64,000 nt of DNA from Eledone cirrhosa (taxonomy: Eukaryota), in contig OZ024745.1 in the NCBI GenBank assembly GCA_964016885.1, positions 56,854,001 to 56,918,000 of the forward strand, given 5' to 3'. The notes beneath the pieces were generated by a model that saw nothing but the letters and a program-made list of their open reading frames with translations, was not told the origin of the DNA and made no database searches. The translations under genes and the position numbers were made by a program. This document shows positions 1,938 to 63,469 of this stretch, piece after piece. Each line of letters starts with the position of its first letter. The first letter of the stretch is position 1.

Positions 1938-3656
1938 GCGCGAACGCACACAGAAACTGTCTCATTCACTCTTTCTTCCTTTGCACTATCGTATTGTATA
2001 CCATGAACATAACATCATACTCTGCAATATGCTTCAATAGTCTGCAAGAACTTAAAAACAGGAACTCGATTATATTTTGTTATGATAGTACCAAATAGAG
2101 TGGTAGTGTTTAAAAAGTGAAATGCATACTTTCTTATAAGTGGGTTGGATGGGGATTAGATTAATATTTTAAACAATTACATTCTTTGTAGTAGTTTCTC
2201 TTTATCAAGCCATTACATATATTTATATATTCCTTAGCTGTATGTAATTGCTGGTTGCTTCTAAATAAATTAGTCGGTCACATTTGTAATTACAAGATAT
2301 ATAGAATTAAGCTATACCCTTTTATTTCTTCAACTGCATGGTTTTAGTTATTTATTTTTCTAAAAATATCCGAATTCAGTTTTATGTTTGTTTAATCTTT
2401 CTGTGTCAGATTAGCAGGTCAGTAAATGTGGTTGTAGATATAGCATTTAAACACAAATGCAATTTGTTTCCCCTTAATGTTAAATACCATGATATAATAG
2501 GACAGAAACTAGACGATTTTGACCTAGTAACCTATTGGAAGCAAAGAGGCAAATGAAAGTTGGTTGAAAGCCGCAATTGATTCTTACATAACATCCTTTA
2601 ACACAAATATAGTTTAAGAACGTATTTATATACCCCTTGTTCAGTGCTACTAAACCATCATAGAATTGTCAGATATTGCACAGTGCAAAGTTATGCACAA
2701 ACAACCTATGAATTTTTGTTTGGATTTATTTCCGTTTAATAAAATGTTTTTTCTATCCCATTAAAAAAAAATTATACACATCTACCAATAGATGCATATG
2801 TATACAGGTATTTTATATATATTGTCCTTGAAAATAGTGAATTCCAAACAATTTAATTTCGTGGATTTATTCCATAAATTAATTTCTTAAACGTTTCGAC
2901 CTGCTTAGCTAATGTTGTCGTTTAAATTAGTTTAAGCAAGCATTTGATTTAATTGTGTATGGTCATTTTCTTTTAAACTATTTTTCATACTTTCTTTTTA
3001 TATAATCAGCTAATTTTACGTACGAAGTCAACTTTGCCTTTCATACAATGAAGGTCGATAAAAAAAAGTAATATTCTATTACGGAGCTCCGTTATTCTTC
3101 AATATCTCTTTCTCTGGAGGAAATATGCTGTATTCCGACCTGGAGAGGAGATGAGATCAGTTAGATTTTTAAAAAGTACGTTAGCAATGCCTCATGTCAA
3201 TGCGGCGCCCCTATGACTCCCTCAATAGTTACGGAATATCGAATATAAATATTGGTCAGCTATCAACTGTAATTAAAGTCGAGTACGTGAAGTCTAACAA
3301 CCAGCGACTTTTAGACACACCGGGCTAATGAAACAATTGTTAATACTTTAAATAAACCCTATTGTACATCCGACCAATTTATTCATTCTTTTAAGGGATA
3401 CTTTTCTTCTGTTGTTTACGTCCCTATTACCTTTTTACACTTCGTTTTCAGTAAACACACAGCCTGCCTCTTTACTTATCCCCCCCCCCTCTCTCTCTCT
3501 CTGTATATATATATATATATATATATCTGCGTGTCTGGGCACATTGATATATTTGTCAACGAAACTATATATATGTATATATATATATATATTGTGATGT
3601 ATATATTGTGATATATATATTTAAATTTACAAATATAATTTGACGTCGTTACCTTT

Positions 3657-3802
3657 TTGACGCATAGAGTTACGGCCCTTGCCATTCTGAGTCAAATCCC
3701 GCCGAGGTTAACTTTACCTTTCATCCTTACGGGGTCGATAAAATAAAGTACCAGTAATACACTGGGGATTTGCTGGCCCTGTGCCTAACGTAGAAACAGT
3801 TA
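3657..3802 (+). mobile_element. tRNA-derived Meta-domain SINE, 5'-truncated
   Basis: B-box-like GAGTCAAATCC, central CCTTTCATCCTTACGGGGTCGATAAAATAAAGTACCAG, tail GGCCCTGTGCCTAACGTAGAAAC; matches about 10 other copies in the window. Confidence 0.85.
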
Positions 3803-5964: not shown

Positions 5965-6002
<38 letters not shown>

Positions 6003-6005
<3 letters not shown>

Positions 6006-6240
6006 CGTTTCTGAATTTGTTTAGAAAGATTCTTTATCTGAAATCGTGTGTTGAAACCGATATTGTTATACTTTCGGAAGGTCATGTTGCCAATAAGAAA
6101 CACACCCACCAGTTGCTTTCACTTCAATTTATTATATATTTATAAATTTGTAAATTTATAAATATATAATAAATTGAAGTGAAAGCAACTGGTGCGTGTG
6201 TTTCTTATTGGCAACATGACCCTCCCAAAGTATAACAATA
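6003..6240. mobile_element. PLE family A terminal fold-back hairpin in (TA)n
   Basis: Arms 6061-6149 and 6152-6240 are reverse complements (about 3 mismatches); 6003-6060 is an unpaired tail; same sequence as the end of the GIY-YIG element at 27703-28780. Confidence 0.9.
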
Positions 6241-8037
6241 TATATATATATATATATATATAAGTGCGTGTGTGTGTGTGCGTGTCGGTGTGTGTGTGTA
6301 AATTGTAGAAAAACAAGGTTTTACATTAAATCTTTCTTTAACCTCAACAATCGTTTCTTTCCAGGTGAGAAGCTTGTATATATATATTTATATATATATA
6401 TATATAAACAATGAAACAATCAGTTATACTTAATTAATAATTATTGACATATTACATAAACACATCAGCCGACATCAGGAATATTTAGAAGGAGAACATT
6501 TAGCACAACACCTAACATGCAAATTACCAAATAATGAATATAGGTAAGCAAAGAAAAGAAAGCAGACAAAGTGGATGCAAGGAAATAGTGGCAATTACAG
6601 TGAAGTAGTATTTAGTAGCCTTTGGAGGCACAAGGCCGGAGAGTTTTGTCCTGTGAGCGTTGGATAAACAATAGTACTATGGTAATATCTAACATATTGA
6701 GAGAGAGAGAAAAACAGCTAATTTAAAACCTATAACAGTAATTAAGTATTTGTATTAAGTAATTAAGTGTTTGTATTAATAGATGTGCAATAGTTAAGTT
6801 CATTATTATTATTATCAAATATGTTACTCACTCAGATATAACAGAAAATCAGGAGCATAGACTTAACCATGCATGATTATCTATGAGCGTGCGCAATTAC
6901 TATGTTTAGCAGTAAATTCAAAACATAAAAAGGTGATATGCATTCCGGGAGGTGTCTATAGGCGTAATGCAATTTGTGTAATATGTTGCCCGGTGTTACA
7001 GCGTAACTAAGTATATTTACGTTACTTAATCACGTTCCTTAAAAATCACCGGGTTATTGGCTGGTAATTTGAATTACATATGCAAATTTGTATTCACATA
7101 TAAAAATATATATAATAAAATATATACGCCCGCATATATAATTACACTTATGACTATGGGGTATACAGTGTAGGTGGTATAAGACAAAAATCCTCCCATC
7201 ATAATATCCAGCCGTAATTGATTATTGCATTTATGTATTAATGTATTTAAGTACGAGGAAGTCAAAGTTACACCTAAAGGACTAATAAACAACAATTATA
7301 TGTTGTGTAAGTTAGGAAGAAATAGGTAAGTTGTTTTTAAAAGTATTGATAACTAGCAGCTCATTCATCACACTCGTAATATGTTTCCTATAGTAAGTTA
7401 ATCTAGTTATTATTTGGTTGAGTTTCACCTATTAGGTGTTAAGTTAAATCATTATAAATATGCATATAGGCACATACACATACACACACACGGACAGATA
7501 TATATATATATCCTTATATAAAAACACATATTATATAGTGGGTGCAATGATAAGTAATCGTAGATGAAACATGATAAAAAGAGTGGCTGGGTTACGATGA
7601 TAGGCCTTAAAAGGCTTTAGTGATATAGTATTGTCAAGAAAAGTAGTTTAGTGTATTTAAGACTCGGTGAAGGAGAACAGCTTAAAGTTAACATGGTCTG
7701 CCAATTATGTTAATAATTACTATATTGAAATAAATGGGTCAAAGTCGCTTTAAGATGCGGAATGATTTTAAATTAAAACTGTGAAGTACTTATGAATTAA
7801 AAATGCTGAGATATGTAGGTTGATATTTTCTATGGTAGGCAGAGTAGGAATTTTATGTAGGCAAGTGGGAAGGACCTCATATATTCTGTTTAAGATAAGC
7901 GCATTAGATTTAAAAATTAAGAAGCATTCTGTGGGGCACAGATTTCACATATGGATTCGTGGCTAGTATACATGGGCAGATTTAAGAATATTACAATTAA
8001 TAGATTATTCAATATTGCCTTTTCACACACACACACA

Positions 8038-10600: not shown

Positions 10601-10855
10601 TTTTTTTTTTTCATTCTTCTTTTATTATTTGACGCACACGTGTGAAGACAGTACACATCTGCGGGGGAAAAGGTTCGTAACTTTAAGCTGTTTTTAAAGT
10701 GTCATTTTTTTGTATTTTCTTGTCGTTAACGAAACATATGGTACACATCTTGGTTTCAAGAGAGGGATACCTCTAAATATTCGGGCTTTAAGCCTGAATA
10801 TTCAGATTTAATTTTAAAAACTTCGAAAAAAATCGCTTCCCCACCAAAAAAAAAC

Positions 10856-11800
10856 ATGGATATTTTCGACCTTGAAACGGTAAACAACGTTCAGGTCAAA
10901 AGTTTAAAAGCAGCCACTGTAGATTTCACCACGACTACGACGGCTACAGTCATGCCTGTCGTCCACTCTACTGAATGTGAAGGCAAAACTCAAAAGCTAC
11001 CATCACAACCTTCTGTGTTAGCAACAGTATCATTTGAAAACGACATCACCACCACCACCGCCGCCACCGCCACAACAACAACAACAACTCAGAGCAATAA
11101 CGACAATAACACCGACAGCTTCAATGTAAACACAGATGGCGGTGGTAACAGCAACAACAAACAAAACAACAACAAAAAACACCAATAACAATAGCAAGAA
11201 TGACAACACCAACAGCAAGAGCATCAGAAGCACCACATTTGCTGCAGCAGCAGCAAAAACAGAGCGCTTATTGGATTTTCATATTAGCGATAAAGACGAA
11301 CAGTTGGCCCAGGCGTGGAGGCTAATTAAACAGGAGAAGTCCTGGGTTAACCTGACCATCCAGGACGGGGCAATATCGGCCATACAAAGGAGGGCGGTGT
11401 ACTTTCGATGTATTTCGGTGCAGACACGAAAAGTGGAACTTGCCAGCCAAGCAGAGGTCGAGGCTGCTTTGGAGTACATCGGAAGTAACATAGAGTATAA
11501 AGCGAGAGGCAAACAGTTCGGTACCATCTCGGTACTGTTCAAAACCGAGGCCCTCGCTATTAAGCACTCGGTGACCCCCTGCAGAACGGAACGCATTATC
11601 ATGCATCCGTCCTACATGGGTAAAAGGGCAGTAAAGGTCCGCATTCCCTGCATCCCACCAGGAATGAACATATGGTGGCAGCTGGGATGAGTAATCGAGG
11701 AAGGAACAGACACTACCCTCCTGGATATCAAATGGATATGCGGAATGGATTTGGAGATTATTCTACAAATGAAACCGGAGGACATGAACAACATCCTGGA
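10856..11800 (+). pseudogene. LINE ORF1-like region, frameshifted (low-complexity T/N N-terminus, RRM-like middle)
   Basis: ORFs 10856-11188 and 11136-11690 (..PSYMGKRAVKVRIPCIPPG..) lie upstream of the APE domain; the C-terminus is missing. Confidence 0.65.
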
Positions 11801-11802
11801 TT

Positions 11803-14800
11803 TTGCCCGTCTACGAACCTACAGGCGCCGGACGACCGGACTTCTTTAGGCGCCTGGAGACCTTTCTGGGTACGTCTCGCCCTTTAATGTTAGCGGGGGA
11901 CTGGAATGGCATCTTAGACGCACGCTGGGATTGTGTGGGAGTAGCCGATAGGAGCGGGGGGTGCAAAAGCTTCAAGCACCTAGTCAGCCAGTTCCAATTG
12001 TCTGACATGTATCGACTAGATTTCCCAAATTTGCCAGTATGGACATGGACCAAACGAATGGGGTCATCTAGATCGTATATAGACAGGATCTTCATTAGGA
12101 AAATAGATAGAATAGTGTAGGCTGCCCACTTTTTAAAACGGTTGCCTATTCCGATCACAAATTTGTAATCTGTACGGTCGACCTAGATAAAACGCATAAA
12201 TTAGGATCGGGTTACTGGAAGCTGAACATGTGATTTCCGACACGTAAGGCTTACAGGGACCGAGTCAACAATTTAGTTAAGCAAAAGTTGACGGGGGGGG
12301 GGGGATTATAAAAAACAGCTGGTGGTGGTGTGGGGGGGGGGGGCTCTCAAAAGAAAGATTAGAGTAACTTCGATAGAATTCAGCAAAGAACTAGCGTTAG
12401 AGCAAAAATAGAAAGGAGGGGGAGCTGGTAGATAAGTTAGACGAGGCTATTTGTAGTGGCATTGCAACTGACGTGCTAGCGGCGAGAATGGCATTAGAAC
12501 ATTTCATCAATGCAAAACACGAAGGTTGCATTGTCAGAGTTAAGGCGCGTGCGCTGAGAAACGAGGGAACCAAAGCTGTTCGATGGGCCCGCGTGGGGGA
12601 GGCGCAGTGTGGTAATAAAACCACAATTCGGTCTTTGGCGAACCGAGATGGACACGAGATAAGCGATTCCAAGCGGATGTGTGAGGCTTTTCGCCAGCAC
12701 TTTGCTCGGTTGTTCGGGGAGAGAGGCGAGTCAGAGAGCGTAGCGGATTTCAGTCCCTACCTTGACGGCTTGCCGCGCATCTCGACGGTCGACGCCGAGC
12801 GCTGCGAAAGGCCTATTACTTCAGCCGAAATTCAGGACGCCTTTGCCGGCTGCATGAGGCGCAGGTCACCCGGTTTGGATGGCCTGCCCTACGAGCTTTA
12901 CATAAATATGCCAGGCTTGTTCTCCGATCTCCTCGAAGCACTCCACTGCAACTGGCAGCAGAATGGGTGTATTCCCAGTTCTGTGAGCAGGGGAGTGGTG
13001 ACGCTGATAAAGACGAGAACAAGAGGGATAGATTAGACTACTTCAGGCCCATAACTCTGCTCAACACAGAGTTTAAGATTTTGGCCAAGGTGATAGCAAA
13101 GAGATTGGCGCTTGTCGTCGAGGATTTGGTTGGGGCGGCGCAAACTTGCGCCATCACAGCCAGGTCCATACACGACAATCTCCACCTCATGCGATACATC
13201 ATAGAGAGGGTAGGGTGTAAACCTGGCTTTAGTGGGGCACTGATCAATTTAGATCAATCGAAAGCATTCGATAGGGTCGACCATCTGTATCTGGAGTTTG
13301 TCCTCAGAGCAGCTGGCTTCGGCTCTGTCTTCAGAAGCTGGATCGTTGCAATGCACAGAGACACACGCTCGGTGTTCAAGGTTAATGGCCACCTCTCGGA
13401 ACTATTTCGGCTCTCCCACTCGGTTCGTCAAGGGTGCGCTCTCTCTTCCCTTCTGTACGTATTGACTCAAGAACCTTTACTGCGGAAGCTGGAGCTGTTG
13501 CAGGGCATGCCGCTCGAACCGGGACGTGGAAGGGCGATGTCGGCTTATGCGGACGACATCACCGTCATGGTGTCGAACACCTCAGAGATCGAGGTGGTCG
13601 GCACCTTATTGAAGGAATATGAAAGGGTGACAGGAGCCAAACTTAACCCGGAAAAGTCGGTGGGCTTGCAGCTCCGAACCTGGAGAGGCAGGCCTATGTC
13701 GTCCAACAGCGTCGTGGGGCGCTGGACGGACCGGTAAAGTTGCTCAGGGTTTGATTCGGACCAGACCTCCAGGTAGAAAGTATTTGGGACGAGGTAACGA
13801 GCAGAGTAACCTGTCTCAACCAAAAATGGGCTGGGAGGAAGCTATCACTGAAAGGTCGCGTGGAGGTGGAAAATGCGTACATCGCATCCGTCATCTACTA
13901 CCGCCTGACCGACGTCCCTTGCCCCCGTCTGCGCCTCGTCAAGTTGGAACGGCTCCTCTTCAAATTCTTGTGGAGGGGACAAGTTCCGTTGGTGAGGCGG
14001 TCCATCTGCGGAGGGCTGGGCATGCCGTGGCTAATGATGCACAGATATGCGTTGAGGCTGCGACATCTCCAGATATTCTGCCACAACGGTGAACAGGTGT
14101 GGTCGCCGTTTATCAGCCGGGCCTTTCAGCAGCACTCACTTTCCGCAGCACTCACTTTCCTCTACCAAGCGGGCAATGCGATCAGTGGAACTTCCACTCT
14201 CGAGTTTTATAGAGGATTAGTGGTGGGGAAGTGCGATGATGCACTCGGAGAAGCTTTGGACCTCGACGAAGTCGAACTGACCAGTCTATACCGGAGGACT
14301 TTCGAGCCGGGGACGATGGACAATTTCCAGAAATCCCTCGCTTCGCAGTGTTACCAGGGGGGGGGGGGGGGGGGGGGCACTGCCGGCTCGGGATAAAATC
14401 TACAAGCACGGAAGTGCTGTCAGACGGACCTGCCCAAGATGCGCACAGAACCACGAAACCGTTCTGCACGCACTTGTCCAATGTCCGTGCATTACTGACT
14501 TGTGGAGTTATGTCGAACAGCTACTGTCGCGTGTGGTACGAATCCGGCTATCGGCCGAGTCCATAGTGAAGATCGACCCACCGCCTTCCTTAGGTCAGGA
14601 AGAGCAGGAAATTTTCCTCTGTCTGGTGGCAGTTGCGAAAGAGGTTATATGGTGGACCAGGTTAAAAGGACTAAAGACAGACCCTTTTCTCTTCGGCCAA
14701 TCCCTCATCAACTTCTTCAAGTTTCACCTGGAAAGGAAGGTGAGGGTGGAGAGAGAAGTGCTACCCCCAGTACATTTTCTAAAAGGTGGATGAATGTGGC

Positions 14801-14845: not shown

Positions 14846-15177
14846 GGCTAGCTAACTCGAGGAGTGTGATGCTCTCCCTGAGTGCCCTAGAAGTGCAGGG
14901 TGGTTCAGGATTGGTGAGGTACCCGAGTTACCCCAAGGTTGTCCACCCCCTATAGGGCAATTTATTTTGTTATATGTATGCATAGTTTATTTTATATTCT
15001 TATATCTTCATTGTTAAATTAGTCTTGCCATTGTGCACTTTTACTCGACCTTATTGTAAACCCCCACTGTCCCTGTCTTTGTATTGTCCCCTACATGTCG
15101 GCCCTTGTGGCTAATAAATGAAATCATTATTATCATTATTGTTATAAAAAGAAAATATTATTATTATAAATTTGTAT

Positions 15178-15361
15178 GTGGATTGGCAGTATCGGTAGAG
15201 GGTCGGACGGCATGGTTTGACGCATCGAGTTACGGCCCTTGCCATTCTGAGTTCAAATCCCACCGAGGTTAACTTTTCTTTTCATCCTTACGGGGTCGAT
15301 AAAATAAAGTACCGGTAATGCACTGAGTAATTTCTGGCTTTGTGCCAAAAACTAGAAACAA
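15178..15361 (+). mobile_element. Meta-domain SINE (short form) with TSD-like ATTATTATTATAAATTT
   Basis: A-box TGGCAGTATCGG, B-box GAGTTCAAATCC, Meta core; flanking direct repeat. Confidence 0.9.
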
Positions 15362-15821
15362 TTATTATTATAAATTTTTATTTTTTGCGCTTTAACTAAT
15401 TTTTTTTTCTGTTAATGCGTTTTTCCTTTTTTTTCCTTTTTATTTTTCGCTTCATATCTCAAATGTATGCTTGCAGTATTTTTTGTTATAATCATGTATT
15501 AAAAAAAGAAAATAATATCAACTAATAATCTATTCAGATATAAATCTTTCAAGGGAGCTATTTAGTCAATATCAGCAAGAGATTATCCGACCACCAACAG
15601 GTGTTTAGTAATTTTATTCACTGTATTTTATTGTCTTTTTATATTCCATCACATTCTCTATGGAATCATCATAAATATGTAGCCCCTCCTGATAGAATCA
15701 CCGCCAAAATCAACAACATAATTACCACTAAAACCAAAACTATAAACAAGTGCACATCAATACTAACACTGTTTTAAAAATGCACCGCATCATCATTGTC
15801 ATTATTATTATAATGAATTCT

Positions 15822-16640
15822 GCTAGATTGGCAGTATCAGTAGTGCATCAGAAACCAGGCTTCGCAGCATAGAGTCGTGACCCTTGACGTTCTGAATTCA
15901 AATCCTGCCGAGGTGAGCTTTGCCCTTCGTCCTTACGGGGTCGATAAAATAAAGCACCAGTAACGTACTGGTGTCGATTTAATCGACTTTCCCCTCCCCA
16001 CAAATTACTCGCCTTGTGCCTATACTACAAATCGGTAGAGGGTCGGACGCCATGCTTTCCAGCATAGTTACGTCCCTTTACGATCTGAGTTCAAATCCCG
16101 CCGAGGTTGACTTTGCCTTTCATCCTTACGGGGTCGATAAAATAAAGTACCAGTAATGCACTGGATATTTGCTGGCCTTGTGCCTAAAGTAGAAACAATT
16201 ATTATTATAATGAAGGGTGGAGGTTTGGCAGTATCGGCAGAGGGTCGGACAACAGGCTTTGCAGCACAGAGTTACGCCCCTTTCTGATCTGAGTTCAAAT
16301 CCTGCCGAGGTTAACTTTGCTTTTCATCCTTACAGGGTCGATAAAATAAAGTACCAGTAATGCACTGGGATAATTGTCGGCCTTGTGCCAAAAGTAGAAA
16401 CAATTATTATTATAATGAAGTCTGGTAGTTTGCAGTATCACTAGTGCATCTTACACCATGCTTCGCGGCATAGAGTTATGCCCCTTGACGTTCTGAGTTC
16501 AAACCCTGCCGAGATGAGCTTTGCCTCTCATGCTTACGGGGTCGATAAAATAAAGTAACAGTTACGCACTGGGGTCAATTTACTCGACTTTAACCTCCAC
16601 ACGAAATTGTTGACTTTGTGCCTAAATCAGAAACCATTAT
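15822..16640 (+). mobile_element. tandem cluster of four SINE copies (long-short-short-long)
   Basis: Units at about 15822, 16032, 16217 and 16423, each with B-box and Meta core; outer copies keep an extra GGTCGATTTAATCGACTT-like segment. Confidence 0.9.
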
Positions 16641-17238: not shown

Positions 17239-18339
<1,101 letters not shown>

Positions 18340-18342
18340 TAT

Positions 18343-18400
18343 ATATAAATACATAATCGGAGAAAGCTAAAAGCGATACTCCGGCCGAATTCCAACTCAC
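18343..18400 (-). mobile_element. inverted copy of family H 3' terminus
   Basis: Reverse complement of 18189-18245 across a (TA)n spacer. Confidence 0.85.
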
Positions 18401-19314
18401 TGCGCGCGCGTGTGTGTGTGTATTTGTGCACGTACAAATACACATGCGCACACTCATACACACACATGCATATATATTATATATATATATATATTCACAT
18501 ATAAAATATATATGCACGTTAGGCGTATTACTTTCAAGGGCGGTGCCCCTGCATGACCGCAGCCTGATGGCTGGAACATATAAAAGAGTAAAAGAATAAT
18601 ATCTATTATATGTGATGGTTCCTTTTGATGTTGCTGATAGTTTTAAGTTTTTACATATTGTTAAATAATGTAAACCTCGTTCCGCTCGCATGGTACCTTA
18701 TAAATATCTTTCTTTGAATTTTTCTTCTGACTCATTGGCCTTCTTACTTCTGAAAGCCCAAAATCGTTTGGCTATTTCCCAAAATGTTTGTACTGCTTAT
18801 AACTAGATCAGTTGCTAAGCTAACAAATATTACACTAGACGGTTGTTTTAGGTGTATCATAATAACATACATGATATTAACACGTGAAGGTTAAACCCTG
18901 AAAGAACAATAAAAACACATTTACGGAAATGTTTATTAGAAAAAGAATATCCTCCCTTCACAAATTCGTAAACATTTAAATACATAGCATCGCATTGATG
19001 AAAGATTTTTAATGTGCAATTATGTAATATTTCCTGAATGTTAAGTCTTAGTGAATCGTAATAATCTGACTCCATAGTAAAAGGAAATTATTCCATCGCA
19101 TCTTGAATAAGTTATTTAAGTTGTTCTATAATGACATTTTTTTCCGTTTCTGGGATCACACTGAATTTTTAAATGCAATGAATATTAAATGATAAAAAAT
19201 AGCAATATCTCAAACACATAGAAACACAGAAAGAGAGAAACAGAAAGACATATATATGTGTGTGCGTGTGTACGTGTGTGTGACTGTGTGCGTGTGTGCA
19301 CGTGTTTGTGTGTG

Positions 19315-19920: not shown

Positions 19921-21566
19921 TAGGTAGGTGTAAAGTGCGGAAGAAATTAAATGGTTTAACAATACATGCAATAATAAAAGCGCCCCCTTTATCCAATAAG
20001 ATTCTGTAAATCACCAGAGACTTATTTATTAGAGCACTAGATTTTACCAACCAAATCTACCCAAAATGTTGGTTGAACCATAAGCTTATAGTGAACGTGA
20101 GGAACGCTCTCCTTCACCCAGGACAAGTGTAAAAATGTGTAAAAATGTGTAAAAATGCCCGACCCAAGCAGAAATATACGATATTTGCCTAGGCTCGTTT
20201 GATGGAGAGGACGTATGGAATTTGCCAATATATTCTGAATATATAATACGACCTTAAATCATTCGTATGCTTCTCTCCATTGTTACTACGCCCTACGTCC
20301 TAGCCTACAATACGGACGGATATCCGAGAAACCGCTCTAAATTTCATATATGTAAAGAAAAACAGACAGAAAATTTAAAGAAAAGCGATTGACAGTTGTT
20401 CTGCATAAACCTTGGATCCAGCCAACCAATAATAGCTTTAAAAATCTAGTTAGAGGCATAAGTAGGTGAACTTTTAACCTTTCCTCAAGTAGAGATATAT
20501 TTAGCAAAGCTGCCCCCTCTACATCGAATCCCTAGAGGCAAAGGGGTTTTAAGTGAAAATGAGTTACAGCCATAGACCTACATAGCCAAAGAGAAATAGA
20601 AACCGAAATACAATATTGTTCATATCAAATTTCTCACTAAATGTCAAAACAAATCTCCTCAGACCATTCGAAACTCTAATAAACAAACACTTCCCTAGTA
20701 ATCATATGTACAGCAAGCAATGTTACAGGCACAACCTATCTTAAGATCAGCTTAACTCCATGAGCAACGTCAAAATATATTAACTAACAGACTCCATTAC
20801 CTACCTTAAATGAGTGCATCTGTAGCAACATTAGATAAAGAGTATAAAGCTGAGAAGGCTATATTTCATGAAGCAATAGGGAATGCAAAAAAAGAAAAAA
20901 CAGAGCACAACACCAGTCTCACGCCATAGGCCGGAATCAAAGAACTACAGTTCAAAGAGCGCTTTCTTAAACACTTGTCATCATTCGTTTATTGAGAGAC
21001 ACGTAACACAAAAAATTCTCCAGTTATTTCTGAAAATTGAAAGATTCTGTAGACCACGACATCACCTAGACGATTGCAGAAAGATGCAGACCTTATATGA
21101 AAGGAATCATGAATTTCCGACTCCACAGTGCTGAGATGTGGCTAATACGGAAGAGGTGATTTTACCTTAAACTCTGCCTTAATCCCGAAAGTGATCTATG
21201 GAAACCTTGTATGAACTGCCCCAAATTCGACCATTTCTTCTAGCCTATACATAACTAGTCGCCAACATCACACTAGGATTGCTCCTCCTCATACCCAATG
21301 GATAACTACGACAATATCAACAAACGCTAGGACAACTACGAGAAACGAAGGGATATCGAGTGAAAGATACATGCGACACAAAACTATTAAATCCCCCACC
21401 AAAATTTAGCCTCACGTAAATCAAAAAAAAAAATGTTTATACCAAATATTCTCAACACTAGAAATAAACAAGAACCGGAAGCATGTAGGACGCTGTGGAT
21501 TGTTGGTGCAAGCGACATTAATCCCCTACGATTAATCAGATAATTTAATATAATATAATATAATAT

Positions 21567-21749
21567 AATTGTTTCTACTTTTGGCACAAGGCCAGCAATT
21601 ACCCAGTGCATTACTGGTACTTTATCGACCCCGTAAGGATGAAAGACAAAGTTAACCTCGGCGGGATTTGAACTCAGAATGGCTAGGGCCGTAACTCAAT
21701 ACGTCAAAGCATGGCGTCCGACCCTCTACCGATACTGCCAATCCACCGT
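21567..21749 (-). mobile_element. Meta-domain SINE
   Basis: Reverse complement of the SINE consensus; flanked by TAATATAATATAAT on both sides. Confidence 0.9.
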
Positions 21750-25798: not shown

Positions 25799-27038
25799 CA
25801 TGAGGAAAGAAATGTTAAATGGGCTGGGTGTAGGCAAGATGATTTTACCGTAGCATTTAGGATAGAAAGCACCGACAATGAGAGTCAGTAGAAACGTACT
25901 GAATGATAAAAATAGCAAGGACATACACATATACAAAGGCAAACACAAAAACCCACAAGCACATGCACTATCAAACGCATTCATATATACACGCCCTCTG
26001 ACGAACAAGCACACACACATATATACAGCGTGTGTGTAAGACAGAGACATAGAGAGAGATATATATAGAAGATCGAGAAAACGAGAGTGAAAGAGATGGG
26101 GGGAGCAGCTTTAAATACCACAACAAAGAAAAATTCAGTGATAATAATGTTTACTAAGCCAGTCACTGTTTCATGTTTAAAACGGGGCCTTATAATCGAC
26201 TCCACTACTATACTAGATCATGATTTCATTCACTCCAGCTGGATGAATCGAAAAGTAACTAACAGCCATACAACATGGCGATTCGAGACACGGCGTAAAA
26301 TGACCGTAATCTATACTGGCTTCTGTGGGTTGCTCTGCCTATTCTAATATCTAACGACTTTAAATATGACAATGTTTAAAGTAGACAAAAGAATATATAT
26401 GTTGTGAATTAGGGTCATATTTGAGTATGCTGTGCTTAAATGTGATTAGTATTTATTTTACGGTGTTCGAGAAGATAAACTTCGCTTTACTGAGTATGAG
26501 TCTGCCATAGACTGACCATAATGCGACTAATAGATATACTGGTTTCTAAGTTAGTTACAATATCAACATTTTTTTAAGTGATAGGGATATTCGATTATAT
26601 AGACTCCATACGTTCCTGGTCCTTTTTTTTGTCGTCTGATTACACATGAAAAGCTACGTTTGAATTCAGAACATAAATGGCTGCTAAAAATATTGTTATT
26701 CGAGATTTTCGACTCTGCTATTACGAAACGAGAAACAAACCTATGAAATATTGAATCCACCCTACTGCTCTAACTCAAATAGCCATCATACATGATAAAT
26801 AAAAATAAAGAATAGACTAAAAAGCTGATTCTATTCCTTTATTTGAAGTATATCTTTTCCTAAAATTTCTCTGATAACATTTGTAATGGTGCACTCACCT
26901 AACGCAAAGCTGCTTGAAAATTGATCAAACTTGCCCTTCACACGCACACACAGACACACACGCACACACAGACACACTTACACACACACATAGACACACA
27001 GACAGTCATACATACACGAGCGAGCGCGCACAGACATA

Positions 27039-27089
<51 letters not shown>

Positions 27090-27202
27090 GTATACATATA
27101 TAAAGGTAAATGTGAGTTTGTTTATCTTTGTGCGTGTATGCCTGTATATAATATATAGTAATATAATATGATATAATATATATATACATATGTATATATA
27201 CA

Positions 27203-27386
<184 letters not shown>

Positions 27387-27391
27387 TATAT

Positions 27392-27641
27392 ACGTTATTC
27401 CGGGTTGAATCGGAGGTAACCACAGTAAGTAAGGTACTCAATACATAGCAGAGTATAACAGTTTCAATATAGATGAGAATCTACAGGACTAGAACTGTTT
27501 CATTCTTTAGATTCCTGATGATTTCTAAAGAATGAAACAGTTCTAGTCCTGTAGATTCTCATCTAAATTAAAACTGTTATACTCTGCTATGTATTGAGTA
27601 CCTTACTTACTGTGGTTACCTCCAATTCAATCCGGAATAAC

Positions 27642-27643
<2 letters not shown>
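27392..27643. mobile_element. family F symmetric fold-back hairpin in (TA)n with a hammerhead core at the apex
   Basis: Arms 27392-27511 and 27524-27643 are nearly complementary; loop contains CTGATGA (27515-21) followed by T-TTC-TAAA-GAA-T-GAAA. Confidence 0.8.
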
Positions 27644-27702
<59 letters not shown>

Positions 27703-27807
27703 TATTGTTATACTTTGGGAGGGTCATGTTGCCAATAAGAAACACACGCACCAGCTGTTTCACTTCAATTTATTATAATGAATTTATAATAAATTTATTA
27801 ATTTATA

Positions 27808-28320
27808 ACAGGTGAATTAGCTTACAAATTTAGAAGGGCCCTAAATAAACATAAACTCAATATTAAGATAGTAGAAAGACCAGGTACCTCCGTAAAAACA
27901 CTTATTAGCAAGACATACCCTTTCCAAAGACCCTCATGTATAGATAAGAAATGTATAACCTGTAAAATAAGCCCCCATATTAACTGTAAAACTAGAAATG
28001 TAGTGTATAGCATAAGATGTACTGAAGGACAGTGTAGAGACAAAAATATAGTGTACATAGGTGAGACAGCTCGTAGTATAGGAGAACGGATAAATGAACA
28101 CTGGCGAGACCTTCAAGATAGTAAAGAATCATCTGTACTCTACCAACATGCTAAAATAGAACACAATGGTAAATTAGAGAACATAGAAATAAAAATAGAA
28201 TCTACACACAGAAAAGACGCAATGTTTAGACAAATTACAGAGGTAATAAACATAAAAGAATTACAACCAAAATTAAATAGAAAATATGAGTGGAACAGCA
28301 ACATCACAACTTACAATTAA
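27808..28320 (+). pseudogene. PLE ORF C-terminus: Cys-rich linker plus GIY-YIG endonuclease
   Basis: Uninterrupted frame IVERPGTS..PSCIDKKCITCKISPHINCKTRNVVYSIRC..VYIGETARSIGERINEH..LYQHAKIEH..RQITE..LNRKYEW. Confidence 0.9.
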
Positions 28321-28520
28321 GGACAAAATGAAAACACACACACACATAGAACAAACAACCAACCAGTAACATGTAAATAAACAAATAAATAAATGAACAT
28401 AAACACACACAGACACCCGGATGTGGCGCATGCGCAGACTGAGCACACAACACAGACACAGAAACAAAATGGCGTAGAACAGAACAAAGGAGAGGCACAG
28501 AAACAAAGAAAGGAATCCCC

Positions 28521-28565
28521 AGTCACTGAAGATGTCATAGAGTGTGTGACGAAAGAACTATGACT
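28521..28565 (+). ncRNA. minimal type I hammerhead motif (family A)
   Basis: AGTCA-CTGAAGA-T-GTCATA-GAGTG-TGTGAC-GAAA-GAAC-TA|TGACT; 5-bp stem I, 6-bp stem II; further copies at 31217-31259(-), 32266-32309(+) and ~56955-56999(-). Confidence 0.75.
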
Positions 28566-28796
28566 ATATATAAACAACTATCTGGTTGTGGAACCAACCA
28601 ACCAACCAACCAGAAATTTATAAATTTATAAATTTATTATAAATTTATTATAATAAATTGAAGTGAAAGCAACTGGTGCGTGTGTTTCTTATTGGCAACA
28701 TGACCCTCCCAAAGTATAACAATATCGGTTTCAACACACGATTTCAGATAAAGAATCTTGCTAAATAAATTCAGAAACGATAACATATATACATAT

Positions 28797-30810: not shown

Positions 30811-31458
30811 TAAAGCATGATACAACAATTCTTGTGTTCGTATGGAGAAATCTCTTGTTGTCAGCAGTGAGAGCATTCTCTAAACTTCTTCCATCCTATC
30901 TTTATTGTAGCTATTATACTCTCGGTGCCCCCTCTTGCTCTTCACATTATGTGTGTGTGCGTGTTCGTGTGTTTCAATATATATATATATATATATATAT
31001 TTCGTTTCTGAATTTGTTTAGCAAGATTCTTTATCTGAAATCGTGTGTTGAAACCGATATTGTTATACTTTGGGAGGGTTATGTTGCCAATAAGAAACAC
31101 ACGCACCAGTTGCTTTCACATCAATTTATTATTATAATAAATTTATAATAAATTTATAAATTTATAAATTTCTGGTTGGTTGGTTGGTTCCAAAACCAGA
31201 TAGTTGTTTATATATTGTCATAGTTCTTTCGTCACACACTCTGTGACCTCTTCAGTGACTGGGAATTCCTTTCTTTGTTTCTGTGCCTCTCCTTTGTTCT
31301 GTCCTACGCCATTTTGTTTCTGTGTGTGTTGTGTGCTCAGTCTGCGCATGCGCCACATCCGGGTGTCTGTGTGTGTTTATGTTCATTTATTTATTTGTTT
31401 TGTTACATGTTACTGGTTGGTTGTTTGTTCTATGTGTGTGTGTGTTTTCATTTTGTCC

Positions 31459-31768
31459 TTAATTGTAAGTTGTGATGTTGCTGTTCCACTCATATTTTCT
31501 ATTTAATTTTGGTTGTAATTCTTTTATGTTTATTGCCTCTGTAATTTGTCTAAACATTGCGTCTTTTCTGTGTGTAGATTCTATTTTTATTTCTATGTTC
31601 TCTAATTTACCATTGTGTTCTATTTTAGCATGTTGGTAGAGTACAGATGATTCTTTACTATCTTGAAGGTCTCGCCAGTGTTCATTTATCCGTTCCCCTA
31701 CACTACGAGCTGTCTCCCCTATGTACACTATATTTTTGTCTCTACATTGTCCTTCAGTATATCTTATG
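31459..31768 (-). pseudogene. PLE GIY-YIG endonuclease fragment
   Basis: YIGETARSVGERINEH..RQITEAINIKELQPKLNRKYEW, nearly identical to the 28003-28320 protein. Confidence 0.9.
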
Positions 31769-32215
31769 ATGAACAAACAGAAGAACAATTTAGTATAGCT
31801 AGATCCGAACTTAGAAATATTATAGAACAGTATAGCAAGAAGCATAATAGAATGGAGGCCCAGCAACTGGGAGAAAAATCTGCAAATGGCTTGCGTAAGC
31901 TCATGCAGCGCTCGCGTAATGGAGAGATAGCATGCTTTCCAATAGACAAGTCTGACAGAATGTCGGTTGACAGCCTGCCAAACTACATCCAGGCAATGCA
32001 ACCCCACATCACTAACACAAGAGAGGTAACACCACAGGAGCATGAGGATAGAGAAAAAGCCCTCAATGCCCATATGGTGATGTGGACGAATATAATGCAG
32101 CCCAACAAAAGGACTGCCAACAACTTCCAGGCCTGGAACAATGACGTGCCAGCGTTGTATGGGCTTCGAAAAGACCATAAAACGGGCTGTGACCCTGTCG
32201 CGGGACCACCAACAC
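31765..32215 (+). pseudogene. PLE ORF N-terminal region up to RT motifs 1-2
   Basis: FPIDKSDRM (DKG-like motif) and PALYGLRKDHK..GPPTR (PLE RT motif 1 KxHK and motif 2 P.RP). Confidence 0.8.
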
Positions 32216-32461
32216 GGCGTAGGACAGAACAAAGGAGAAGCACAGAAACAAAGAAAGGAATCCCCAGTCACTGAAGAGGTCACAGAGTGTGTGACGAAAG
32301 AACTATGACAATATATAAACAACTATCTGGTTGTGGAACCAACCAACCAACCAGAAATTTATAAATTTATAAATTTATTATAAATTTATTATAATAATAA
32401 ATTGAAGTGAAAGCAACTGGTGCGTGTGTTTCTTATTGGCAACATGACCCTCCCAAAGTAT

Positions 32462-32521
<60 letters not shown>

Positions 32522-32528
<7 letters not shown>

Positions 32529-32734
32529 TAACAGATTAAAGTTTAAGCAAAGAATCGCTGCTTTCAACCTTAACTGTTTTTGAAGAGCCCGTTAAGGGTG
32601 AAAGCCGCGATTCTTTGCTTAAATTTAATCTATTATTTTGATAAATATTTGCTCTACGGTTCTTATGTATTTGATATATAATTATCCTTATCGAGCCCTC
32701 TTTGGATTTTAGTCTTTAAATTTATTATTATTAC
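32522..32734. mobile_element. family D fold-back with one-sided tail
   Basis: Short arm 32522-32573 is complementary to ~32591-32642; tail to 32734; homologues at 38932, 39205 and 41259. Confidence 0.85.
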
Positions 32735-35633: not shown

Positions 35634-36215
35634 TACAATATTAAATAAATGGAAAACTATATTTATAAAACCATATTTATTTCATTATATATATTTCGGG
35701 GATATCATATTAACAATATGCTATGCCTTCATCAGACAAAATACAATATAAACAGTTTTATAGATAAATATATTCGACATACCGTAATAAACATCAACTT
35801 CATTTGAAGAGGTTCACTCATATCATATTAACAATATAAATATGCCTTCATCAGACAAAATACAATATAAACAGTTTTATAGATAAATATATTCGACATA
35901 CCGTAATAAACATCAACTTCATTTGAAGAGGTTCACTGCTAGAGTGAACCTCTTCAAATGAAGTTGATGTTTATTACGGTATGTCGAATATATTTATCTA
36001 TAAAACTGTTTATATTGTATTTTGTCTGATGAAGGCATAGCATATTGTTAATATGATATCCCCGAAATATATATAATGAAATAAATATGGTTTTATAAAT
36101 ATAGTTTTCCATTTATTTAATATTGTAAATATACTCCAAGTATTTGTCGAGTGCTTTTATATCAGTTATAAATATTTACTAGTTGTAACCCAACAATTTT
36201 AAATATAACTTTACA
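35634..36215. mobile_element. family E fold-back with internal 118-bp duplication and one-sided tail
   Basis: 35634-35819 is complementary to 35942-36127; 35702-35819 is duplicated at 35820-35937; tail 36128-36215. Confidence 0.88.
36022..36076 (+). ncRNA. hammerhead-like motif (family E)
   Basis: CTGATGA(36026-32)-stem II (CATATT/AATATG core)-GAAA-TATA-TA; stem I weak. Variant at 56546-56600 has a different but pairing stem II. Confidence 0.55.
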
Positions 36216-36259
36216 TGTATATATATATATATATTTATATTTTTATATATATATATTTA

Positions 36260-38804: not shown

Positions 38805-38848
38805 TAATTCTGGCAATATTACGCAAATATGACCCTCCCCAAGTATAA

Positions 38849-38851
<3 letters not shown>
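38805..38851 (+). mobile_element. family B terminal fragment
   Basis: AATTCTGGCAATATTACGCAAATATGACCCTCCCCAAGTATAACA matches 41136-41183. Confidence 0.8.
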
Positions 38852-38931
<80 letters not shown>

Positions 38932-38937
<6 letters not shown>

Positions 38938-39138
38938 GAAGACTAAAATCCAAAGACGGCTCGATAAGGATAAATATATATCAAATATATAAGAATCGTA
39001 GAGCAAATACTTATTAAATAACATATTAAAGTTTAAGCAAAGAATCGCTGCTTTCACCCTTAACGGGATCTTCTGAAAGCAGCGATTCTTTGCTTAAACT
39101 TTAATCTGTTATTTAATATATATATATATACATATATA

Positions 39139-39211
<73 letters not shown>

Positions 39212-39385
39212 TAACAGATTAAAGTTTAAGCAAAGAATCGCGTTAAGGGTGAAAGCAGCGATTCTTTGCTTAAACTTTAATATGTCATTTAATAAATATT
39301 TGCTCAACGATTCTTATATATTTGATATATATTTATCCTTATCGAGCCGTCTTTGGATTTTAGTCTTCAAATTGATTATTATTAC
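38932..39385. mobile_element. two family D fold-backs in inverted orientation around (TA)n
   Basis: 38932-39117 and 39205-39385 are each a hairpin with an outward-facing tail. Confidence 0.85.
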
Positions 39386-39392
39386 TATCTAT

Positions 39393-39446
<54 letters not shown>

Positions 39447-39699: not shown

Positions 39700-39700
<1 letters not shown>

Positions 39701-41183
39701 CGGCGATGAATTAGTTTAGCGAGGTTTTTTATATGAAATCGTGTGTCGAAACAGATATTGTTATATTTGGGGAGGGTCATATTTGCGTAATATTGCCAGA
39801 ATTAATAACAGAACACACTCACTGTTTGGTTGGTTTTCGCTTTTCGCTGTCTTTTATATCTGCGATCTAACTTACTCGGTCCTCAATGTTGCCATTGACT
39901 GACCGGCGGTCAAAAATAATACAGATACAATATAGACACAAACACATATATATAGTTTACATAATTTACATAAATCTTTCGTTGCACATCTGCAACATCG
40001 TCAGTGGTGTTATATTCATTGTTCCTCCTGTTGTGTTGTATGTCTACGCCATTTTTTATTCAGTCTGTCTATATATTTATTTATTTATTTGCTTGTTTGT
40101 TTATCTTATTTTATTTTGTCTTCTTTGCTCATGCGTTTGCGTGTGTGTATAGTGTTATGTGTGATGTGTGATTAGTGTGTATAGTGTTGTGTCTGCTGGG
40201 TGACTAGTGTGTGTTTATGTGCTTGATGTTATTGTGCTTGTGTATGTATTTATTTATCTTATTTTATTTTATTTTATTTACTTATTTATACTTCTCTTAG
40301 GTCAGTGTTGTTTGTTTGGGTGTTGTTGTTGTTCCACTCATTCTTTCTGTTTAGCTTTGGTCTTCTAATTTCTATTTCACTGGCCTCTCTGATTTGCCTA
40401 TCTGCTGGGTCTTAGCTTTGGTCTTCTAATTTCTATTTCACTGGCCTCTCTGATTTGCCTATCTGCTGGGTCATTCCTATGTTTAGATATTATTCTAATT
40501 TCTATGTTGTCTATGTTACCCTCATATTGTTGTCTAGAACATGCTAGACAACAACATGACCAAAGCTAAACAGAAAGAATGAGTGGAACAACAACAACAC
40601 CCAAACAAACAACACTGACCTAAGAGAAGTATAAATAAGTAAATAAAATAAAATAAAATAAAATAAAATAAGATAAATAAATACATACACAAGCACAATA
40701 ACAACAAGCACATAAACACACACTAGTCACCCAGCAGACACAACACTATACACACTAGTCACACATCACACATAACACTATACACAGACGCAAACGCATG
40801 CGCAAAGAAGACAAAATAAAATAAGATAAACAAACAAGCAAATAAATAAAAAAAATATATAGACAGACTGAATAAAAAATGGCGTAGACATACAACACAA
40901 CAGGAGGAACAATGAATATAACACCACTGACGATGTTGCAGATGTGCAACGAAAGATTTATGTAAATTATGTAAACTATATATATGTGTTTGTGTCTATA
41001 TTGTATCTGTATTATTTTTGACCGCCGGTCAGTCAATGGCAACATTGAGGACCGAGTAAGTTAGATCGCAGATATATATATATAAAAGACAGCGAGAAGC
41101 GAAAACCAACCAAACAGTGAGTGTGTTCTGTTGTTAATTCTGGCAATATTACGCAGATATGACCCTCCCCAAATATAACAATA
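39700..41183. mobile_element. PLE family B, 1.5-kb fold-back
   Basis: Arms ~39756-40362 and 40557-41183 are complementary; minus strand 40335-40537 encodes RQQYEGNIDNIEIRIISKHRNDPADRQIREASEIEIRRPKLNRKNEW (GIY-YIG C-terminus, ignoring a 61-bp duplication); tail 39700-39755. Confidence 0.9.
40925..40962 (+). ncRNA. minimal hammerhead motif (family B)
   Basis: CA-CTGACGA-T-GTTGCA-GATG-TGCAAC-GAAA-GATT-TA|TG; mirror copy at 39969-40006(-); stem I only 2 bp. Confidence 0.6.
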
Positions 41184-41205
41184 TATATATATATATACAC
41201 ACACA

Positions 41206-41258: not shown

Positions 41259-41264
<6 letters not shown>

Positions 41265-41901
41265 ACAGATTAAAGTTTAAGCAAAGAATAGCTGCTTTCA
41301 CCGTTCACGGGATCTTCTGAAACTAACAAAATCAATCTGTGGACGCAGAAGTTAATATTTCAAAAAACGTTCCAACCGGAGGAAGACAGGAAGACGATGC
41401 TTTGGTTCGTGGGAACGTTCCCTGGCAAAGAACGGGAAAAAAACGGAGATAATACGTCATATGTGGAGCTCCACATATGACGTATTATCTCCGTTTTTTC
41501 CGTTCATTGCCAGAGAAGGTCTCTATGAACCACCTAATAGAATATTAGTCTACGACTTCTTTTATACCATAAACGTAGTTTTGTTCTTGCGTGTAATTGT
41601 TTTCAACCGCTCCAAATAATGTCGTATTATATTCGTTTTTTCCAGTTCTTTGCCAGGGAACGTTTCCACGAACCAAAGTATCGTCTTCCTGTCTTCCTCC
41701 GGTTGCAACGTTTTTTGAAATATTCACTTCTGCGTTCACACATTGACTTTGTTAGTTTCAGAAGATCCCGTTAAGGTGAAAGCAGCGATTCTTTAATCTG
41801 TTATTTTAATCTGTTATTTTAATAAATATTTGCTCTACTGTTCTTATATATTTGATATATATTTATCCTTATCGAGCCCTCCTTGGATTTAGTCTTCAAA
41901 T

Positions 41902-41915
<14 letters not shown>
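41259..41915. mobile_element. family D long fold-back with nested perfect palindrome
   Basis: 41259-41433 is complementary to ~41645-41810; 62-bp perfect palindrome at 41438-41499; tail to ~41915. Confidence 0.85.
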
Positions 41916-56724: not shown

Positions 56725-57050
56725 TTTCGTTTCTGAATTTGTTTAGCAAGATTCTTTATCTGAAATCGTGTGTTGAAACCGATAGTGTTATACTTTGGGA
56801 GGGTCATGTTGCCAATAAGAAACACACGCACCAGTTGTTTCACTTCAATTTATTATATATTTATAAATTTATAAATTTACAAATCTACAAACTTATAACC
56901 TTATAAATTTCTGGTTGGTTGGTTGGTTCCACAACCAGATAGTTGTTTATATATAGTCATAGTCCTTTCGTCACACACTCTGTGACCTCTTCAGTGACTG
57001 GGGATTCCTTTCTTTGTTTCTGTGCCTTTCCTTTCTTCTGTCCTACGCCA
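56725..57050 (-). mobile_element. PLE family A pLTR plus tail
   Basis: Reverse complement of 28470-28780, including the hammerhead. Confidence 0.9.
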
Positions 57051-63078: not shown

Positions 63079-63461
63079 GAAAATAATGGAGCTGCGGCGT
63101 TGCAAATGGGTTACATATGAAAAAAGTTTGTCCTTCATCAGTGATCTTCCAACCATCATAGGCATTTCATCGCTTTAAAGACCATATACCTCCGGTTGGT
63201 GCGAACAACGGCTAAAAAAAGTCGTTGGGACACGTAAATAGAGGGTACACGAGGGTAAACAAACAAAATGGTTAAGCAACAGAAAGTTCCTTCCTCACTT
63301 TCTGTTGCTTAACCATTTTGTTTGTTTACCCTCGTGTACCCTCTATTTACGTGTCCCAACGACTTTTTTTAGCCGTTGTTCGCACCAACCGGAGGTATAT
63401 GGTCTTTAAAGCGATGAAATGCCTATGATGGTTGGAAGATCACTGATGAAGGACAAACTTT

Positions 63462-63469
<8 letters not shown>
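63079..63469. mobile_element. apparently perfect 173-bp fold-back with one-sided tail in (TA)n
   Basis: Arms 63115-63287 and 63297-63469, 9-nt loop TCCTTCCTC, unpaired tail 63079-63114. Confidence 0.88.

What the first reader, a model, noticed from the sequence alone, without database searches (positions are those of the whole stretch)
6003..6240. Rule of the one-sided tail in fold-back insertions
Seen: in families A (6003, 27703, 31000), B (39700), D (32522, 38932, 39205, 41259), E (35634) and the 63079 hairpin, one arm stops at a fixed TA-like motif (A/B: TATAACAATA) and joins (TA)n. The other arm continues a further ~36-95 nt to a second fixed end. Known: PLEs show inverted 5'-truncated segments and an optional 3' tail. 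Inference: twin priming, in which one nicked (TA)n strand primes at the RNA end and the opposite strand primes at an internal TA-like site, with the two cDNAs joined head-to-head.
Basis: partly seen in the sequence, partly recalled or inferred. Interest (0 to 1): 0.7.

Follow-up and report, generated by a model that had tools for sequence, protein, structure and literature searches.

The report
Penelope insertions pair two start sites
These mirror-image inserts are truncated copies of Penelope-like jumping genes whose two arms end at two different fixed sites about nine times in ten, most likely because both cut strands of the target DNA start copying the element's RNA, one at each site; the one-sided shape is already described, but how it arises is still unsolved.

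Summary
The 6003 hairpin is a head-to-head stub of an endonuclease-bearing Penelope-like element (PLE) in (TA)n. One arm is tailed and one tailless in 36 of 41 family-A pairs (50% expected, p 4e-7), 24 of 26 near-full-length insertions (2 unclassified), 14 of 16 family-D pairs, 8 of 8 family-F clusters and 70 of 76 fold-backs in 1 Mb of systematically spaced genome stretches.

Correction: neither end is the RNA end. The 60-nt tail is ORF codons 9-28, and both ends lie at AATAT^CG.

Either arm can be the longer, some tailed arms hold tail only, arms share alleles, and one insertion shares 29 private A>G changes. This favours two cDNAs primed on opposite strands, usually from one RNA (0.65). Fold-back copying may explain the near-symmetric third.

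The one-sided tail, two start sites, two-strand extension and a predicted dimer are published. I did not find the quantified pairing rule in print. This scan reached the same reading earlier, in this genome and others. Read support for the hairpins was not obtained.

The parts
6001..6061 (-). Family A tail, about 60 nt = ORF codons 9-28, between the short site and the long site (both AATAT^CG in the intact element)
6062..6150 (-). Tailed (long-end) arm of the focal fold-back; includes the ORF start codon; turns inside the self-complementary (ATAAATTT)n tract
6151..6241 (+). Tailless (short-end) arm, ending TATAACAATAT into (TA)n; 3 differences from the other arm in 88 nt
5968..6003 (.). Left (TA)n target flank
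6238..6262 (.). Right (TA)n target flank
27703..28782 (+). Family A fold-back: short inverted tailless arm (128 nt), long tailed arm (928 nt) with the GIY-YIG end of the ORF (27802-28320) and a minimal hammerhead motif near 28526
31000..32468 (.). Family A fold-back: tailed inverted arm (727 nt), a 441-nt internal ORF piece, tailless arm (273 nt) with minimal hammerhead motif at about 32265-32312
56725..57050 (-). Family A single-arm tailed copy, no inverted partner
39700..41184 (.). Family B (relative of A) fold-back, tail on the left arm
38805..38854 (+). Family B tailless stub, lying just after a fragment similar to the LINE reverse transcriptase at 13523
32522..32734 (.). Family D fold-back, tail 94 nt on the right (PLE membership inferred, no protein shown)
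38932..39116 (.). Family D fold-back, tail 81 nt on the left
39205..39397 (.). Family D fold-back, tail about 95-106 nt on the right
41259..41914 (.). Family D fold-back, tail 95 nt on the right
35634..36217 (.). Family E fold-back with a 119-nt internal tandem duplication; tail 91 nt holding an ACTC..GAGT hairpin; hammerhead-like core in the arms
63079..63469 (.). Family F fold-back, tail about 40 nt on the left; parent is a non-coding 615-nt tandem unit with TCATAT at both sites
27393..27642 (.). Family C fold-back tailed on both arms: the exception in this window

Best explanation
These are head-to-head Penelope-like insertions in (TA)n whose arms end at two fixed internal sites of the element, likely because the element's protein nicks both target strands and each free end primes its own cDNA, one at each site, usually on the same RNA. 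Shown: two sharp ends at look-alike ATAT motifs at the start of the ORF; strict opposite pairing, in either orientation; arms not nested; arms from one template lineage. Inferred: the two nicks are staggered about 12-14 nt, giving two 3' overhangs; each overhang pairs with the AUAU of its site; a protein dimer holds both sites at once, which forbids using one site twice; the enzyme that starts at the downstream site copies the tail and then displaces the other cDNA; the two cDNA ends are joined through short inverted homology. The joint is symmetric when it falls in a palindromic tract or when both enzymes stop together.
For: Pairing: 36 of 41; 61 of 67 in anchored loci, none short/short; 24 of 26 near-full-length insertions, 13 one way and 11 the other, 2 unclassified, from 42 loci of which 16 showed no pair; family D 14 of 16; family F 8 of 8. 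Near-equal exact counts of the two ends: 12,516 and 11,510. Non-nested arms: of 59 single-turn insertions the tailless arm is longer in 24, the tailed arm in 15. Four insertions have a tailed arm that never reaches the short site (L060, L067, L069, L179), which copying one arm from the other cannot make. One template: 1.8% divergence within against 4.8% between insertions; minor alleles shared 157 times, split 9 times, 58 shared expected; 28 of 29 insertions concordant. In L160, 29 of 29 A>G changes are shared by the inverted arm and the adjacent copy, and a pattern spanning them occurs exactly twice in the genome, both there. Junction homology to (TA)n of 3 nt or more in 36 of 70 against 12%. 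Interrupted direct repeats in 8 of 28 informative flank pairs against 33 of 756. In vitro, an anole PLE cuts and extends both strands, starts at two sites that bound the tail, and is predicted to be a dimer (PMC11167929).
Against: Near-symmetric turns are far above chance (15 of 42 against a permutation mean of 2.0; 19 of 59), as fold-back copying predicts. Shared alleles and the A>G barcode also fit fold-back copying or gene conversion between adjacent inverted arms; the barcode is one locus among 474 aligned pieces, and no 5'-G depletion was seen (6 of 16 against 23 of 55). In L160 the tailed arm matches the 5' copy, 4.1 kb from the short end used (54 against 2 sites), so the two sites need not be adjacent; L217, L238 and L151 lean weakly to the 3' copy and 16 other cases say little. 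L151 and L157 have arms that differ at 4 common sites each, which suggests a second RNA or conversion. Frangieh et al. saw no strand difference in start-site use and no homology between start site and cut DNA. Exceptions exist (27393; long/long and short/short pairs). Four of the eight direct repeats are 30-46 nt and may be array periodicity. No dimer test or empty-site comparison was done here.
Confidence: 0.65

Rival explanations
1. Fold-back (self-primed) synthesis: one cDNA is made, its 3' end folds back, and the enzyme copies it to give the second arm, which stops or is cut at the other ATAT site.
For: Excess of near-symmetric turns, many at native palindromes. Arms share alleles and the A>G patch. 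In tandem insertions such as L160 the first cDNA contains the tail, so copying it back can give a tailed arm. Arkhipova 2013 proposed self-priming from junction palindromes (PMC3846280, passages).
Against: Without a tandem junction the tailed arm must be first and must contain the other arm, yet the tailless arm is longer in 24 of 39 asymmetric cases, by up to 2.5 kb. Tail-only arms exist. Symmetric insertions are not younger than asymmetric ones (2.3% against 1.7% arm divergence), so later deletion does not obviously rescue the model.
Confidence: 0.15
2. DNA-level resolution: the endonuclease, which likes ATAT, nicks a double-stranded element intermediate at the two motifs on opposite strands, so the ends are cut sites and not priming sites.
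For: Both ends carry the motif that the target offers. Craig 2021 attributes the tail to endonuclease-mediated resolution (PMC8557442). The Drosophila virilis enzyme needs the tail to cut (as cited in PMC11167929).
Against: It gives no reason why two ends 4-9 kb apart on a mirror-image intermediate should be cut at opposite sites, in either orientation. Reverse transcription was seen to start at these positions on RNA in vitro (PMC11167929). The single-strand A>G patch shared in the sense direction points to an RNA template for both copies, unless conversion occurred.
Confidence: 0.12
3. A few fold-back founders were transcribed whole and re-copied, or arms were remodelled after insertion, so the counts are not independent events.
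For: Earlier scan notes report hairpins with polarised G:T mismatches in this genome (e1-8667798, e1-8671701; unchecked by me). Conversion between inverted arms is plausible.
Against: Turn points are almost all different, the rule recurs across 32 sequence clusters in 1 Mb, and no T>C cluster was found in 474 family-A pieces.
Confidence: 0.06
4. Assembly artefact: fold-back chimeric reads.
For: Read-level support was not obtained; no contig spanned the 63079 hairpin.
Against: Arms differ by scattered point changes (139 one-arm singletons), ends are base-precise and family-specific, and chimeras would not pair opposite ends.
Confidence: 0.02

Closest known systems
Insertion units of endonuclease-positive Penelope-like elements with an inverted 5'-truncated copy and a tail at one end (Craig et al. 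2021, PMC8557442, passages and section 15 read; Arkhipova et al. 2013, PMC3846280, passages read)
   Same: [quoted passage not shown]
   Different: Those passages call the tail optional or frequent and 30-40 nt. Here it is a near-strict opposite pairing, counted in several families, in either orientation, with tails of 40-100 nt or more.
Anolis Poseidon element PAc in vitro (Frangieh et al. 2024, PMC11167929; parts 1-2 of 4 and passages read, supplements not read)
   Same: Two internal start sites inside the ORF start that bound the tail; both strands cut and extended; AT-rich target; predicted dimer.
   Different: That text does not pair the two sites within one insertion, does not explain inverted arms, and reports no homology between start site and cut DNA. 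Here both sites carry ATAT matching the target.
L1 twin priming (recalled; only a search listing seen)
   Same: Both target strands prime cDNA on one RNA and the cDNAs are joined by microhomology. The tail-only insertions have this anatomy.
   Different: L1 primes at the poly(A) end plus a variable internal site, and the two parts hardly overlap. Here both sites are fixed and internal, and the arms usually overlap to form a hairpin.
Neptune and Nematis PLE clades (definitions in PMC8557442)
   Same: C-terminal GIY-YIG with a CX4CxxC linker and two cysteines inside the core; (TA)n bias.
   Different: No tree against named references was built, so the clade is not fixed. DKG reads DKS. The unit is 4.08 kb with an Asn-rich stretch.
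Non-LTR retrozymes, non-autonomous PLE derivatives (bioRxiv 10.64898/2026.07.22.740005, passages read)
   Same: Family F is a non-coding 615-nt unit in short tandems.
   Different: A complete hammerhead was not established in F, and the passages read do not mention fold-backs or tails.

Membership tests
Endonuclease-positive PLE (family A/B) | One ORF with reverse transcriptase and C-terminal GIY-YIG endonuclease | tested here: met
   GIY-YIG PF01541 above cut-off; weak RVT_1 match below cut-off, E 9e-4; YVDD motif in the 919-aa frame of L160, which is split by a frameshift from the N-terminal frame; 239 homologues at E<=1e-30, best 70% to an Octopus vulgaris predicted RT protein.
Endonuclease-positive PLE (family A/B) | [quoted passage not shown] | tested here: met
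   VVYSIRCTEGQCRNKNIVYIG, followed by two histidines (EHW, YQH), read by eye; not aligned to references.
Endonuclease-positive PLE (family A/B) | Pseudo-LTRs from partial tandems, inverted truncated copies, tail | tested here: met
Endonuclease-positive PLE (family A/B) | Minimal hammerhead motif in the pseudo-LTR | tested here: met
   Own motif scan: 5 of 12 family-1 fold-backs, shuffled null 1 of 1700. Rfam found no hammerhead in 27000-42500. Activity untested.
Neptune/Nematis clades | CX2-5CxxC linker before the endonuclease | tested here: met
   CIDKKCITC; definition
Neptune/Nematis clades | Placement in the RT phylogeny | not tested
   No named reference sequences were at hand.
PLE membership of families C, D, E, F and other de novo clusters | Link to a PLE ORF or hammerhead motif | tested here: inconclusive
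   Hammerhead motif in 6 of 33 clusters, including E; protein match only in A/B; none for C, D, F, whose fold-backs are mostly short.
Twin priming | Both arms separately templated (not nested) | tested here: met
   later deletion not fully excluded
Twin priming | Both cDNAs from one RNA molecule | tested here: inconclusive
   Allele sharing and one A>G barcode show one template lineage but also fit fold-back or conversion.
Twin priming | Staggered nicks leaving a target-site duplication | tested here: inconclusive
   8 of 28 informative flank pairs against a 4.4% null; four of 12-14 nt; pure (TA)n hides the rest.
Twin priming | Both strands of one target molecule extended from different sites | not testable with these tools
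   Needs single-molecule biochemistry.
MITE or Tc1/mariner DNA transposon | Equal terminal inverted repeats with the same end on both sides | tested here: not met
   70 of 76 fold-backs are asymmetric and the turn points vary. The 6 symmetric ones were not classified.

The most novel reading that the evidence does not exclude
Penelope-like elements integrate by an obligatorily paired two-site reaction. One ribonucleoprotein, probably an asymmetric dimer, assigns the two nicked target strands to two different ATAT-bearing sites of its RNA. Two first-strand cDNAs, and not a first and a second strand, then build most insertions. The same rule would hold for dozens of families, including non-coding ones, and would explain the tail, the inverted pseudo-LTR and part of the (TA)n bias together.
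Probability: 0.5. Interest if true: 0.72.

Novelty: new member of a known kind. Interest (0 to 1): 0.5.

Why it matters
How PLEs, the sister group of telomerase, form their inverted and tailed insertions is stated to be unresolved (PMC8557442 section 15; PMC11167929). The pairing rule turns that into one experiment in an existing in vitro system. It also matters for annotation: 76 such fold-backs in 1.0 Mb (4.3% of those bases) extrapolate to roughly 2 x 10^5 hairpin-forming loci in this 3.0-Gb genome. They look like MITEs or microRNA precursors (sub-threshold Rfam matches) and are likely double-stranded RNA sources in an animal group known for heavy A-to-I editing (my knowledge).

Tried and rejected
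Read support: none obtained for the focal hairpin. Four runs laid on the 63079 hairpin showed the family but no piece spanning it (uninformative). No RNA holder was listed. Rfam found no hammerhead, only sub-threshold microRNA hairpins. A tail-free DNA query of the genome returned nothing because common words are skipped. A general folding-energy test of tails was not significant (5 of 15 against 3 of 15), and the family A and F start regions fold no better than shuffles. The first end scan skipped poorer matches and was redone. Searches missed the A>G cluster through an identity filter; one search fixed this. An apparent excess of private changes in the L213 arm came from an internal duplication and vanished. 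My ideas that the short end always marks the 3' copy, and that single-arm copies are mostly tailed, were rejected (13 against 11; 6 short against 4 long). A rolling-circle template is excluded for L160 only, since its 5' and 3' copies differ in the A>G patch. The de novo tail length for 39700 (160) is a mis-call caused by an internal TA run; the true value is 57-59. No relative genomes were available for empty sites. No dimer fold was run. [quoted passage not shown]

Full report
What is there. The window lies at G000:C5:56,854,001-56,918,000 in a 3.0-Gb genome. The element's protein is 70% identical to an Octopus vulgaris predicted protein, so the host is octopus-like (inference). At 6003-6241 two inverted arms sit between (TA)n runs. 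The left arm runs about 60 nt further than the right. One hairpin it did not list, 27393-27642, is tailed on both arms.

What the element is. Family A is an endonuclease-bearing Penelope-like element. The window holds its GIY-YIG end. Full-length units of 4,082 nt were recovered elsewhere in the genome. [quoted passage not shown] A minimal hammerhead motif lies about 200 nt before the short end. Family E and four other clusters have such a motif too. Families C and D have no shown protein or motif. Family F is a non-coding 615-nt tandem unit. Their PLE status is inferred from shared anatomy.

The tail is the start of the ORF. Where the tail does not meet (TA)n it continues in frame into the element body (452 exact junctions). 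The focal arm translates as the protein's N-terminus. Both ends are therefore internal. They are sharp: of 233 ends, 107 were short, 117 long, 6 ran on into the body and 3 were other; 100 of 107 and 107 of 117 are followed by (TA)n. Both read AATAT^CG, 60 nt apart. In F both read TCATAT, about 40 nt apart. Across clusters the short junction shares 3 nt or more with (TA)n in 36 of 70 cases against 12% expected; 8 of 78 were dropped for unclean flanks, and per cluster the median reaches 3 in only 9 of 27.

The rule. Exact short and tailed ends number 12,516 and 11,510. Among the 188 listed on C1:1-42.7 Mb, 36 of 41 head-to-head pairs are mixed. In anchored loci 61 of 67 are mixed and none is short/short; these loci were chosen by end motif, but the 10 pairs in the systematically spaced 1 Mb agree (9 short/long, 1 short/intermediate). 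Of 42 loci with a tandem or full-length junction (40 of the 100 listed, plus L151 and L160), 26 showed both outer ends: 13 inverted-long/direct-short, 11 the reverse, 2 unclassified. Family D gave 14 of 16 and family F 8 of 8. A family-blind scan of 100 stretches of 10 kb found 76 fold-backs between (TA)n runs; 70 are one-sided, and 58 of 61 in clusters with two or more members. Singleton 'tails' could be flanking DNA.

How the arms relate. Of 59 single-turn insertions, the tailless arm is longer in 24, the tailed arm in 15, 19 turn within 10 nt and 1 within 11-20 nt. The difference between 24 and 15 is not significant (p 0.2). The symmetric class is well above chance (15 of 42 against 2.0) and often sits in native palindromes, as at 6150. 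It is not younger. Of 102 long ends, 6 lacked the short-site core; three of these join an inverted tailless arm directly, and L069 is a fourth case seen in print. Arms of one insertion share alleles (157 shared, 9 split, 58 expected), and 28 of 29 insertions are concordant at common sites. L157, and L151 among the tandem loci, are not. In L160 the inverted tailed arm and the adjacent 5' copy share 29 of 29 A>G changes that the 3' copy lacks, and the pattern occurs only there. I read this as an edited RNA, but the usual neighbour bias was not seen, and it is one locus.

Mechanism. Head-to-head geometry is what results if the top strand of the left flank and the bottom strand of the right flank each prime an antisense cDNA. 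Non-nested and tail-only arms require two templated syntheses. Opposite pairing over up to 9 kb, in either orientation, requires that both choices be made together. Allele sharing points to one RNA. The published biochemistry supplies two start sites, two-strand extension and a predicted dimer (PMC11167929). I give this 0.65. The displacement step, the dimer, primer pairing at AUAU and the 12-14-nt stagger (weak) are inferred. Fold-back copying (0.15) may make part of the symmetric and tandem cases. DNA-level resolution (0.12) explains the motif but not the pairing.

A lead from earlier scan notes. Notes e1-9552500 and e1-9599295 describe conserved RNA hairpins beside the ends. I found an RCTC..GAGY stem starting 3-9 nt into the tail in 9 of 29 clusters, against 0 upstream and 0.55% in shuffles, with both ACTC/GAGT and GCTC/GAGC forms. 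It is absent from A/B and F, which obey the rule equally, so this particular hairpin is not required for pairing. I could not test the second hairpin.

Comparison with what is known. Craig 2021 says the tail is often present at one end only and ascribes it to endonuclease resolution. Arkhipova 2013 places it on one of the inverted repeats, notes that it extends the ORF codons, and proposes self-priming. Frangieh 2024 equates it with the span between two start sites. My six searches listed no paper that counts the pairing or derives the inverted arm from twin priming, but subscription papers and supplements were not seen. This scan has reached the same reading on other DNA in this and other genomes; those notes are unchecked and are not evidence.

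Verdict. Real, genome-wide, and a known anatomy in new members of a known class. The added value is the quantified pairing and the arm tests, which make an open mechanistic question directly testable. Interest 0.5.

Noticed in passing
L160 (G000:C1:2083001-2093000); L089:1260-1420: A Penelope copy with 29 clustered A>G changes against 4 others, shared by two arms and running through the hammerhead core; likely an A-to-I edited RNA written into DNA.
   Followed up: partly
G000:C1:132947040-132947574: Twelve exact tail-to-ORF junction matches at a 46-nt period, apparently a minisatellite born from the family A start region.
   Followed up: no
L022:1470-1725: Single-arm tailed insertion in non-(TA)n DNA with a direct repeat of about 12-13 nt on both sides, a likely target-site duplication.
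   Followed up: no
L031:77-1950, L176:9212, L203:3290, L144, L195: A third end 42-47 nt past the short site, mostly in A/B-related copies; L031 carries it on both arms.
   Followed up: no
window 10730-14800: Decayed LINE with a first ORF, an endonuclease (weak Exo_endo_phos match) and RVT_1.
   Followed up: no
window 38681-38854: A fragment 73% like the LINE RT region lies directly before a family B tailless stub; possibly a chimeric insertion by template switch.
   Followed up: no
window 17338-18401, 34144-34363, 58197-58510: Another dispersed family abutting (TA)n, with a direct duplication and a short tail-to-tail inverted piece around the (TA)n at 18241-18348.
   Followed up: no
window 3656-3802, 15150-16624, 21559-21762, 49369-49575, 60216-61207: An abundant SINE-like repeat of about 200 nt, in tandem at 16031-16573 (period 204) and 60217-60608.
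   Followed up: no
window 33463-34084 and 55819-56431: Two 92% identical copies of a 620-nt element between TA-rich runs, without inverted arms.
   Followed up: no
window 41403-41532 and 30242-30320: Smaller inverted repeats: one inside the family D insertion at 41259, one beside a (TA)n run.
   Followed up: no
L218: At least two full head-to-tail family A units with a period of 4,423 nt.
   Followed up: no
L258-L280: Family F often occurs as direct 1-2-unit tandems with no inverted partner, ending at either site; retrozyme-like.
   Followed up: partly
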